A stretch of 63,688 nt of DNA, filler included, from Reticulomyxa filosa (Eukaryota; Protista; Foraminifera): the NCBI GenBank assembly GCA_000512085.1. It is 15 parts of 15 records of this genome, joined end to end, with 100 filler letters (N's around TTAATTAATTAA, not from the genome) between each part and the next. Parts side by side here need not be neighbours in the genome. Positions count along the whole stretch, not along the records: positions 1 to 20,251 come from ASPP01025233.1; positions 20,352 to 22,903 come from ASPP01029233.1; positions 23,004 to 25,709 come from ASPP01008721.1; positions 25,810 to 27,201 come from ASPP01007125.1; positions 27,302 to 29,310 come from ASPP01020204.1; positions 29,411 to 30,618 come from ASPP01002988.1; positions 30,719 to 34,086 come from ASPP01018331.1; positions 34,187 to 38,049 come from ASPP01021920.1; 7 more parts are not named here. One strand, written 5' to 3'. Position 1 is the first letter of the stretch. Each line of letters opens with the position of its first letter. This document shows positions 6,172 to 57,326 of the stretch, piece after piece. The notes under the pieces were generated by a model, which worked only from the letters and a program-made list of their open reading frames with translations, had not been told where the DNA came from and ran no database searches. Made by a program: the position numbers and the translations under genes.

Positions 6172-8204
6172 TTAGAGATCCTGCAAGACAAACAGAGTTG
6201 AAAGTATGAATAAAATTATGTGCATTGTTTGATTTATGTTTGTGCAATGAGACAACTTAACTTTATTCTTCAAATCGGAAGAGCAACAGTAATCGATTGA
6301 AATCATAAGTGCAAATATGCTTACAAAAATTCCAACAAAAAACAAAACGAGTTGCCAACCGGACAAATTGTTTAAAAGCCTTTCCGCTGCCTGTTTGGAC
6401 ATGCAAGCCAACAAATTGTCAAAGCTGAGGAGAGAGGAACAAAAAAAGAGGGAACATAACCATCGCCTTTCGAGCAAACCAATTTCTGGTGTAGATAATC
6501 TACATCCAAACAAGACAAAGCAAAAAAAAACAAAAAACAATCAGACATTTATTTATCGCAAATCGACAATAAAAACAAAAAAGGAATACATTACGGGCAA
6601 TTTCTTTTCGAATACTTGCTCGATAAATTCCATAGAGATTGTTTTACTTTTGTAATATCCGTCTTCTTTGTTGTCATAGAGAATGACTTAATGTAGGAAG
6701 TAGACATTTGTACAAACCAAACATTTCAATATTGTTTTTTTTTTCTTTTTGTTATTTAAAAAAAAGAGAAGAGGGAATGCACATGATACAATTACAAAAC
6801 AAATTGGTAAATCTGATTTTTGCAAGGACAGAGTTTCCTTCAAAAACTCTTCGAATTGTGTGAAATTGGTCATTCCAATCAAAAGAGGAAACCTCAGTTC
6901 CGTGTCAGAGCGTTCAGTATTGGGCTGTTTGCTGACAAATGACACGTGTTGCTTTGTTCTCCACGACGGATTCGAAATTGCAATAGATTCCAACTCTTCC
7001 AAGAATCTTGAAATACACACATGCATATATGCATATATGCATATACAAATAGACATTCGTGCAAAGTTAGAACAGGGTGCAAAGTGGAGAACCAAACTTG
7101 TCACTTTGCTGTCGATGTTCGTCGTCAAAAGCAACAACGGCGAGTCCCAAATACCACGATTTTTCGGAAAGCGATCGATGATTGGTTTCGTCCAACCTCA
7201 CCACAGGAGCAAATTGATTGGTCGCAAAGAACTCGCCATACAAACTGCTCTATTGTTGAAAACACAGATAGAACAAAGCAATGGTAATTCCCTTTTTCAT
7301 TCATTTGTGAGGACACACGATAGAAGACGTTTTCTTAAAACTTGGTCGCTGGAGATAAGATGTGAGCCATGCTTTTGAGGGGACACACTGATCAAATAAC
7401 TGTTTGGACTCGTTTGAATCGCGTTCCATTGCGAGAGCGAGAGTTTCAATGTGTGCAAGATAAAAGACTCCGAGAGCTGAAGCAATTGTTGATGAGAGAT
7501 TGTAAATATAACAATGTATGGTCGGTATGGGTTGGCCTCTTTCGTCATCAGTTCTTTGTCTTTGAGATTGTTGTTATTCACATACACAAACATCATTTCA
7601 TATTTGTGATTCGCCAACTGGTCTTCCACTGCTTTTCTGTCAGTTCGCGCAATAATGGACTTAGCATTTTCGTTGCAAATTCCACCAATCCCTCTTTTGT
7701 TCGTCTTCCATTGTATTGATATTGCGTTCCTGCTTCGTAACTGAATCAAACCCCCCCCCAAGTTCAATCCCCAAACCATGGCCCCCTTTTTTTTATCGAT
7801 TATGTAACTTGTTGTTCTTCATAATATTGACATTCTCAATACACAGTTCCTTTTATCTCTCCTCTTCTTCCAAATAAAAAGAGAAATACAAATAAAAAGA
7901 GAAATTTTGCACACAATTTAACAGTTGGAAATCGATTGACATCAAATTTCTTTGCCAAATCTTTCTCAGCTGTCACGTCAACTGTGCCAAATTTTACTCG
8001 ACCTTCCATCTCGTCAGACGCCTCCTTATACACTGGGGCAAAGTTTTTGCAGTGTCCACACCACGGCGCATAAAACTCTAAAAACCATTTTCCTTGTGCA
8101 GTTTCGGCTTCAAAACTTTCTGTTTTCAGTTCAACTACATCGCACAAGCTCAATTGAAAGTTGATAAGTAAAAGACATAGTAATTGTAAGCCCAAAAGCG
8201 CCAT
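6172..8204 (-). CDS. TMX3-like thioredoxin-domain ER membrane protein (multi-exon; one -1 frame break at ~7633-7636)
   Basis: Signal peptide, FYAPWCGHCK active site, spliced FPTVKFYEAGTQYQYNGRRTKEGLVEFA, a C-terminal TM helix and a spliced KNKDL* end (KxKxx ER-retrieval motif). Confidence 0.8.
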
Positions 8205-8728
8205 GGATATTCGGTTATTAGAACTTATTCCCTCGACCAAAAACGCGGTAACAAAAACTCTACAATTTTGTAATAAATTTGAGTTTGTGGCTTTTCTGTG
8301 TACGTTTATCTGTCATATACTTTTTTCAAATATACAAAAAAAATGTATTGCTTAGTTACAATACATTAATGATCTTTGTCTTAAGATCATTGCTTATGTT
8401 TTAAAAGTCAGTTATTAATAGACCTTTGCATAATTGATGTCTATTGTATGTAATTACTAGCTAGTTCTTGCTTAAAATATTTACATTATTAAATAATTTG
8501 TAAATATTGAAATAATGGCAAGCATAACCTATTTGGAATTCTCAATCTTTATGATAATTAAAGTAACAAACAGAGGTGCACTAACGACAAATACGGATTT
8601 TTTTATGTTTTTTTAATATTCCCGTTGGGCTTTGGCAAGATACTTATTGAATAAAAAACCTCTGCAAGTAGAGATCTGATATCTGCAACTTTCAACTAAA
8701 GTATCTGTTATTATCCTCATAATAAATA

Positions 8729-55100: not shown

Positions 55101-57326
55101 TCACTTCTTCCTTTTCCGTCTTTATATTGACTTGAGGCGGATAGGCCTTTCCATTTTTCCCGTCAGTTTGTTTCATGCTCTCACTTTCAAACAAAAACAT
55201 CCGAGCACATATGTCAAAGCAAATATATACATACACACACTCCTTTCTTCCATTGCAAAGCAAAATACAATATTTAACTTATTTTTCGACGCAAACTCGG
55301 CAGGGCCGACCGAGGATGGCGGAAGAGCAGGGTTCGTTTTTGCCCTCCCTCCCGTCGGCTGGTCATCTTTGCTTCGCTTGTGCGTTTTGACCGATGTAGC
55401 TTTGGCTGTGACATTGGCTGTGGCATTGGCAGGGGATAATTTCTTCAACTTGTCCAATGGATTGCTGTCGTTCTTTGCTGTACTTAATTTCTCACTCATC
55501 ACAATTGCAGATGGTTCGGTTTCATTTTCATCTTGTGTTCTTCCTCCCCACTGTACTCTTTTTTATGTTTGTTATCACTGTTATTGTTTTGTGATTCATC
55601 CCTGATTCCTGGGGAAGAACTATGTCACATTTTTTTGATATATCATTGCACAAAAACAAAAAGGTCTTCTTTTTTTTTTTAAAAAAAAAGGATCCAATTG
55701 ACCTAAACACACGTACAACATATAGCATTACTTGTGCTTACTGCCTTTATGCTTTTTGTCTTTTTGTCGAAGCAACGAAGTACATGTCGCTGTGGGGGTC
55801 ACATAGCTCTTGACCTTTAACTCTTCCACAGCTTCGCTCATCAATTTACTTTATTGATTTCGTTTTGTTTTGTTTTGTGACATTGTTGTATTGCGCATGC
55901 ATGGATTTTATGAAATAAAACAAAAACAATGTTTCTAACTTCCATTTCTTTTCCAATGCCTTTCCGGAATTGTGACATTCATCTGAAGGGTTATTGAATT
56001 GGTAACAGTTACCCCAAATCAATGCAACATCTTGGGCAAATTCTCCCAATTTGTGATAGCCATTTTTTTCCAATTTCAACTTTTCCTTATTTTTAAAAAA
56101 AAAAAAAAGCAAAGGTTGCAAAAATGTACGTTTTTACAAGCATCACATAAGCAACAATAGAACATACAGAAATGGTAAAAAAATCCATGGGATATTTAAT
56201 GGTCTCGTAATAATTCTGGATTCCCCTCACAGGAAATGCGAACCAATGGTAATTCTTTTCGTCATGTGAAATTTTTTGAATTTGTTGGGCCATAAGTCTT
56301 TCCACAAAATAATCGATTACTACGTCTGCCGGATCATTTTGCGTTACCGCCGGTTTTACGTATTGATATCGCCTTCTATCTCTTTTGTCGATATTGCACA
56401 TGGAATCCAATTTGATTTCAATCATCATTTTTTTTTTTTTTTGGAATAAATACATAAATAAATGATATAAACAAAACATCAATCTACTCAACGTCGCTTG
56501 CTGTTTGAATTTGCAGCTCTTGGAAGGGTGCCACTATGTATGGCGACGCGATATTCGCATATATGTGTATATAAGTGCATATTTGTATATGATGCATTGT
56601 CAAACAATTAGAAGTGGAAATGAACAATCAAAATAGGAAGACAACAGAGTGAGAACGAGATTGACCAATAAAGAAACAGGAGAATAGCATTGAGTGAGTG
56701 GAAGACATAAAGGAGTGAGGAGAGAGAGAGAGAGGGAAAAAACAACAAACAAACAAACAAACAGATAAACAAAGTGCCGACGAAAATCCTCACAACTTAC
56801 TCAACAAATTCTGAAACAGGAATGGTCAAATTTTCAAAACATGTTGGACATAAAGGATGAGCACAATTTTTGCAGAAATAATGGACATTGGCGTCGGTGT
56901 GATTGAAACATTGAAATCCTACTTGATTCATTGCTTTATTGCAAATACCACAATTGACGTTCGGTTGTGCCATTCGAACTTCACGACACAAATTGAAACA
57001 TTGAGGGCACTCTGTCAGTTCATTTCGAAATTCTTTGGCTGGAAACCAGTGACCCCTCACCTTTTACACACCCACACATGCGTTTATATATATACATATA
57101 CACATATATGTATATGTATGTATATAATATCACATAGAACACACTCCACAAAAGTACAATCGATTCGAATCATCTCATTCAACACGAAACTGTCCGACTA
57201 TTGATCAAATCTTCAAAGTTATTCAACAGCCTTGCCGCTTCGACATACCACGTCGTGGGGGCTTCGTTGTACTTTTTCGAGTTTTCAAACACTGTGTAAA
57301 TGTCTTTGATTAGTTGTTTTGGCTTG
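48581..57326 (-). CDS. Large multi-exon, multi-bromodomain protein with a Cys-rich finger and poly-N/poly-D tracts, 5'-truncated; three -1 frame breaks
   Basis: Canonical bromodomain WFAFPV..YYETIKYPMDF..FAQDVALIWGNCYQFN; further copies DIYTVFENSKKYN, LDIGTI..FVNDLRKVWLRN and PISFHDIQ..YRSNEEFKKDM; CxxC cluster at 56797-57060. Confidence 0.8.

What the first reader, a model, noticed from the sequence alone, without database searches (positions are those of the whole stretch)
7630..55530. Ten same-polarity -1 frame breaks at short A/T runs in four otherwise intact genes
Seen: after removing introns, the reading frames still need exactly one extra base at these sites. TMX3-like 7633-7636 (ACA GAA AAG). 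RDR-like 10396-10401, 11976-11980 (G TTT TTC), 12081-12087 (A AAA AAC), 12113-12116 and 13164-13170. PRORP 36069-36075 (GCA AAA TGA). Bromodomain gene 55525-55528, 54956-54962 (A AAA AAC) and 54920-54923 (ACA AAA TGA). All can be read as -1; none requires +1 or a nonsense substitution. They occur on three contigs, while the dynein fragment has similar A-runs and no break. Established: A AAA AAC is a classic -1 slippery heptamer, and AAA-stop marks frameshift sites in Euplotes (mostly +1). Inference: this could be widespread -1 ribosomal frameshifting, transcriptional slippage or insertional editing in nuclear genes. The most parsimonious explanation is still homopolymer under-calling in the assembly (the bacterial contig also loses single bases). 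The 10396 site may instead be an upstream ORF.
Basis: partly seen in the sequence, partly recalled or inferred. Interest (0 to 1): 0.75.

Follow-up and report, generated by a model that had tools for sequence, protein, structure and literature searches.

The report
Missing bases in a draft assembly
Four genes of a foraminiferan draft genome have broken reading frames at short A/T runs, and these are most likely sequencing errors, because a contaminating bacterial piece in the same window also lacks three single bases compared with a 99%-identical genome.

Summary
The ten A/T runs are at the stated places, and the genes are really broken. The claim of ten forced -1 breaks does not hold. Three breaks are firm net -1 shifts (thioredoxin gene, PRORP, RDR-like 13164). 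The others depend on the reading: 10396 abuts an in-frame ATG; 55525 is bypassed by a GT-AG intron; 54956+54920 score better as one +1; the RDR triple sums to zero. An unlisted in-frame TGA (13841) also interrupts the RDR-like frame.

The best control is the bacterial contig. Against a 99%-identical genome it has 12 of 12 substitutions synonymous, 3 single bases missing and none extra, so this data set very likely drops bases from working genes. Recoding signals are weak: 3 of 10 sites have a slippery heptamer, while 43 such heptamers lie in unbroken coding sequence. One residual hint: 4 of 10 upstream frames end in AAA-stop versus 12% simulated (P about 0.02, post hoc).

No reads, transcripts or orthologues spanning a eukaryotic site could be obtained, so the verdict is inferred. 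Earlier scan notes show no such finding on other DNA. Verdict: assembly artefact, about 85%.

The parts
6172..8204 (-).
   Evidence: Pfam PF00085 E 1.7e-23; P0002, 100% identical over the query on a 20251-nt contig, labelled thioredoxin of Reticulomyxa filosa by its source; Atlas neighbours are PDI/ERp44-type
7593..7736 (-). Open interval of a net -1 break; candidate A4 runs at 7695, 7667 and 7633; best placed about 7628-7676
10396..10401 (+). A6 run ending in the in-frame ATG of the long RDR-like frame; no shift required
10401..14786 (+). RDR-like gene (weak label), in several frame segments
   Evidence: ORFs; Pfam RdRP E 0.033, below cut-off; no homologue other than its own model
11976..12116 (+). 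Net-zero zone around the TGA at 12003-12005: three -1, or one -1 and one +1, fit equally
13164..13170 (+). A7 run at a firm net -1 break
   Evidence: only run in the 82-nt open interval; codon model and HMM both place -1 here
13841..13843 (+).
25810..27201 (+). Contaminating bacterial contig (oppC/oppD-type ABC transporter genes); single bases missing at 26550, 26557 and 27013
   Evidence: Pfam; against L081 from G069: 12 synonymous substitutions, 3 missing bases, 0 extra
35369..37529 (+). PRORP gene with introns (5' end approximate)
   Evidence: Pfam PF16953 E 1.1e-11; frames
36059..36075 (+). Firm net -1 break at the A4 run before TGA TAA
48581..57457 (-). Multi-bromodomain gene with many introns (5' end off the contig)
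   Evidence: Pfam PF00439 in three exons; HMM
54912..55005 (-).
55499..55563 (-).

Best explanation
The frame breaks are likely base-calling errors of a fragmented draft assembly that drops single bases, mostly from A/T homopolymers, and the four genes likely have ordinary continuous reading frames in the cell. Shown: the frames are broken as assembled, and the bacterial contig in this window lacks three single bases relative to a 99%-identical genome. Inferred: the eukaryotic breaks arise in the same way. Some of the ten listed sites are likely not breaks at all (a start codon at 10401, a splice choice at 55525, one +1 read as two -1).
For: Bacterial control: 12 of 12 substitutions synonymous, so the gene looks conserved by selection, yet 3 bases are missing (AA to A, CCCC to CCC, one lone G) and none is extra. 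L082-L084 also show 3 missing and 0 extra, and 83 of 90 related loci match an open-frame pattern across both sites; of the other 7, six show open frames of 283-334 residues from the Walker A motif and L079 showed only a 235-residue frame, likely its second ATPase. The polarity is the same as at the firm eukaryotic sites. Breaks concentrate in longer runs and have no common motif: 3 of 10 have a slippery heptamer, against 43 in 18,270 nt of unbroken coding sequence; 305 unbroken runs of 4 or more exist. A/T-biased, length-dependent homopolymer frameshifts are a documented error class that can hit 20% or more of genes in low-GC genomes on one platform (PMC3277595, passages; PMC3116506, passages). 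A gene needing three to five ordinary, inefficient -1 shifts in a row would yield almost no product (own knowledge).
Against: No read, transcript or orthologue spans any eukaryotic site, so the error is not shown there directly. The bacterial contig may have lower read depth; its loss rate (3 per 1.4 kb) exceeds the eukaryotic one, and one of its losses is not in a homopolymer. 4 of 10 upstream frames end in AAA-stop vs 12 of 100 simulated deletions (P 0.024, post hoc). Two heptamer sites (11976, 12081) have downstream folding z of -2.3 and -3.4, the second at only -3.0 kcal/mol. Real slippage mutations in pseudogenes would also fall on runs. The sequencing platform was not determined.
Confidence: 0.85

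Rival explanations
1. The deletions are real: replication slippage in decaying gene copies or alleles (pseudogenes), with intact copies elsewhere in the genome.
For: Slippage mutations also favour runs (own knowledge). The RDR-like gene has several breaks plus an unlisted in-frame TGA. Visibly decayed sequences with mixed shifts lie in the window (20352-22903, 44156-46123).
Against: The genes are otherwise long, spliced and stop-free, with no clear nonsense substitution in three of four. It does not explain the bacterial deletions.
Confidence: 0.08
2. Stop-dependent recoding as in Euplotes but with -1/+2 polarity, or classical -1 ribosomal frameshifting, is common in nuclear genes of this foraminiferan.
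For: Upstream frames end in AAA-stop at 4 of 10 sites (3 of 6 among the more independent ones; P about 0.025, post hoc). Heptamers in frame at 11976, 12081 and 54956, two with negative folding z.
Against: At two of the four AAA-stop sites the stop lies 37 and 20 nt past the run, and the codon model favours the run by 4.5 and 2.6 log units; weak homology also ranks the stop position lowest for the thioredoxin gene (241 vs 253-279). In Euplotes AAA-stop gives +1 (PMC10235951). 7 of 10 sites lack a heptamer; 43 heptamers occur in unbroken frames.
Confidence: 0.04
3. RNA polymerase slippage or insertional editing adds one A or U to the mRNA.
For: The sites are homopolymers and the firm ones need exactly one added base.
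Against: Runs are 4-7 long, whereas efficient slippage is described for runs of 9 A or T (in bacteria; PMC5009743, passages). 305 similar runs sit in unbroken frames that such slippage would damage.
Confidence: 0.03

Closest known systems
Homopolymer-length consensus errors in draft assemblies (described for 454 in PMC3277595 and PMC3116506)
   Same: A/T runs, rising with run length, single-base indels that break genes in an AT-rich genome; reproduced on a bacterial contig with a near-identical reference.
   Different: The platform is not known here; one bacterial loss is a lone G; the passages read describe both insertions and deletions, not a deletion-only bias.
Euplotes stop-dependent +1/+2 frameshifting (PMC10235951)
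   Same: Several breaks per gene in ordinary nuclear genes; AAA-stop ends 4 of 10 upstream frames.
   Different: In Euplotes the shift is at the stop, AAA-stop gives +1 and +2 follows AUA-stop. Here the firm shifts are -1 and 8 of 10 runs lie 8-106 nt upstream of the stop.
Classical -1 programmed frameshifting on X_XXY_YYZ (PMC5009743)
   Same: -1 polarity at the firm sites; heptamers at 3 of 10 sites.
   Different: None of the three firm sites has an in-frame heptamer; no consistent 3' structure; no conservation could be shown.

Membership tests
Classical -1 PRF | In-frame X_XXY_YYZ heptamer at the shift | tested here: not met
   3 of 10 sites, 0 of the 3 firm ones; 43 in unbroken coding sequence under the same lenient definition
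Classical -1 PRF | Stimulatory structure shortly 3' of the site | tested here: inconclusive
   70-nt windows: z at or below -2 at 2 of 10 sites; pseudoknots not modelled
Classical -1 PRF | Site conserved in relatives | tested here: inconclusive
   No orthologue found
Classical -1 PRF | DNA and mRNA both lack the base, and a peptide spans the junction | not testable with these tools
   No run listed
Euplotes-type stop-dependent shifting | Shift occurs at the stop codon | tested here: not met
   Run adjoins a stop at 2 of 10 sites; of 6 sites scored, the codon model prefers the upstream run by 2.5-4.5 log units at 3 and is within 0.5 at 3
Euplotes-type stop-dependent shifting | AAA-stop with +1 polarity (+2 after AUA-stop) | tested here: not met
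   AAA-stop at 4 of 10, but the required shift is -1/+2; no ATA-stop among the ten
Transcriptional slippage | Run of about 9 A or T | tested here: not met
   Runs of 4-7; threshold from bacterial examples in PMC5009743
Assembly indel error | Same loss seen against an independent near-identical sequence | tested here: met
   Bacterial contig only: 3 missing, 0 extra vs L081
Assembly indel error | Independent reads show the extra base at the eukaryotic sites | not testable with these tools
   the genome index did not complete

The most novel reading that the evidence does not exclude
This foraminiferan decodes many nuclear mRNAs with efficient -1/+2 frameshifts, partly at AAA-stop, a second non-triplet code after Euplotes but with the opposite polarity.
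Probability: 0.04. Interest if true: 0.9.

Novelty: not a real feature. Interest (0 to 1): 0.07.

Why it matters
As an artefact it is a practical warning: gene models from this assembly are bent around lost bases (P0002 reads intron and wrong-frame sequence across the break), so apparent pseudogenes, truncations and orphan proteins here need read support. If real recoding were shown, it would be a new genetic-code variant in Rhizaria.

Tried and rejected
No whole genome is held for the window. No sequencing run was listed for 6300-14800; that is no evidence either way. The genome index was busy six times, so no second assembly and no genome-wide survey. Homologue searches: RDR-like first frame, longer proteins only, 0 of 2982 candidates; second frame against 1.84 billion representatives, only its own model; thioredoxin domain, longer proteins, 7 of 40 candidates, none a close orthologue; PRORP, longer proteins, 0 of 516; both clusters looked up have one member; PDB sequence searches gave nothing useful. 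Exact-match scans of metagenome contigs: 0 hits each. The symmetric HMM was trained on the same window and calls spurious breaks on antisense strands, so it is used only to show that polarity is not forced; at shift cost 10 it gave -1 at 13170 and 36068, +1 at 54974, and +1 at 7692 with a different intron in the thioredoxin gene (not favoured by homology). Literature: 'Reticulomyxa'+'frameshift' gave 9 papers, 8 listed; passages read in three (PMC4374526, PMC13466520, PMC8101967) mention no recoding in this species. 'foraminifera'+'frameshifting'+'ribosomal' gave 4 (listing only) and one search gave 4 (listing; passages read in three of them); none appeared to report it. Subscription journals are not covered and no supplement was read. 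Rejected: the intact dynein fragment as a sign of selectivity (P 0.2-0.4); the 2^-10 polarity argument (only 3-4 sites have a forced sign).

Full report
Setting. The window is 15 contigs joined by spacers: AT-rich eukaryotic pieces with short GT-AG introns and one 61% GC bacterial piece. A database protein identical to the thioredoxin exon, on a contig of the same length as the first one, is labelled Reticulomyxa filosa by its source. A published table lists the public draft of this species at 50,809 scaffolds, N50 3.6 kb, mean intron 87 bp (PMC13746701, passages), and another paper suspects leftover bacterial contigs in it (PMC8101967, passages). Which assembly or platform produced this window was not established.

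Observation. All ten sites are A/T runs of 4-7 bases. Pfam confirms thioredoxin, PRORP and bromodomain; the RdRP match is below cut-off. I trained a codon-position model on 36 hand-picked unbroken coding segments (18,270 nt) and enumerated stop-free paths. Three breaks are firm net -1 shifts: PRORP (17-nt interval, one A4 run), RDR-like 13164 (82-nt interval, one A7 run, model peak on the run) and the thioredoxin gene (144-nt interval, three A4 runs).

The other sites are not forced. An ATG at 10401 opens the long frame. An intron 55731-55558 with GTAATG and AAAAAAG ends removes the need for 55525, although the exon it would skip looks coding and the HMM at low cost kept a -1 there. The RDR triple is net zero, and three -1 (-237.2) ties with -1/+1 (-237.9); a GAAAA unit inside a GAAAAA repeat makes the three-loss reading natural. 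An in-frame TGA at 13841 was not listed. So the polarity rests on three or four sites, not ten.

Association with runs. Unbroken coding segments hold 305 runs of 4 or more (183, 81, 26, 10, 5 for lengths 4-8). Dynein's 48 unbroken runs are expected (P 0.21-0.39). A length effect fits base-calling error, slippage mutation and polymerase slippage alike.

The control. The bacterial contig carries oppC/oppD-type genes. A family-wide search of 68 genomes found one 99% identical over 1395 nt (G069, L081). The window differs by 12 substitutions, all synonymous, and by three missing bases (26550 A of AA, 26557 C of CCCC, 27013 a lone G), with no extra base; three 90%-identical genomes also show 3 missing and 0 extra. 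83 of 90 related loci match an open-frame pattern across both breaks, and six of the other seven show long open frames on inspection. A gene with only silent changes that lacks three bases in its ATPase is most simply mis-called. This shows a deletion-biased error mode in this data set, with the caveat that read depth may differ between contigs. A/T-biased, length-dependent homopolymer frameshifts are documented, reaching 20% or more of genes in low-GC genomes on one platform (PMC3277595, passages; PMC3116506, passages).

Recoding tests. In-frame X_XXY_YYZ heptamers (motif from PMC5009743, passages) occur at 3 of 10 sites and at none of the three firm ones, while 43 lie in unbroken frames. Downstream folding z is -2 or lower at 2 of 10 sites, both with heptamers, one at only -3.0 kcal/mol. 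Only 2 of 10 runs touch a stop. Against my reading, 4 of 10 upstream frames end in AAA-stop versus 12 of 100 simulated run deletions (P 0.024, post hoc). In Euplotes AAA-stop gives +1 and +2 follows AUA-stop (PMC10235951, passages), so the polarity does not match. Efficient polymerase slippage is described for runs of 9 in bacteria, longer than any here.

What could not be done. The eukaryotic errors are therefore inferred, not shown.

Literature and earlier notes. Searches showed no report of nuclear frameshifting or editing in foraminifera in the open library (listings; passages read in PMC4374526, PMC13466520, PMC8101967, PMC13746701, PMC11069148). Earlier scan notes on this genome concern viral elements only, and a word search found nothing similar.

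Verdict. Assembly artefact about 0.85; real pseudogene or allele mutations 0.08; ribosomal recoding 0.04; slippage or editing 0.03. Interest 0.07.

Noticed in passing
window 20383-20831 +: Three consecutive frame segments that seem to join by two +1 steps (near the A4 run at about 20498-20501 and near 20595-20599); no Pfam hit.
   Followed up: partly
window 21130-22100 +: Coding-looking frames with in-frame stops and shifts; likely a decayed gene.
   Followed up: no
window 44156-46123 - and 30719-31232 +: Decayed retroelement pieces: reverse transcriptase (Pfam RVT_1 E 8.7e-7) and RNase H split over two frames.
   Followed up: partly
window 13550-13660 +: The RDR-like frame has DSDLSDD where an RNA-directed RNA polymerase would have its DxDGD motif (motif and correspondence recalled); the protein may be inactive or not an RDR.
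   Followed up: no
   Followed up: partly
P0002 vs window 6172-8204 -: The database model of the thioredoxin gene runs through intron and wrong-frame sequence around the break and ends before the last exons.
   Followed up: yes
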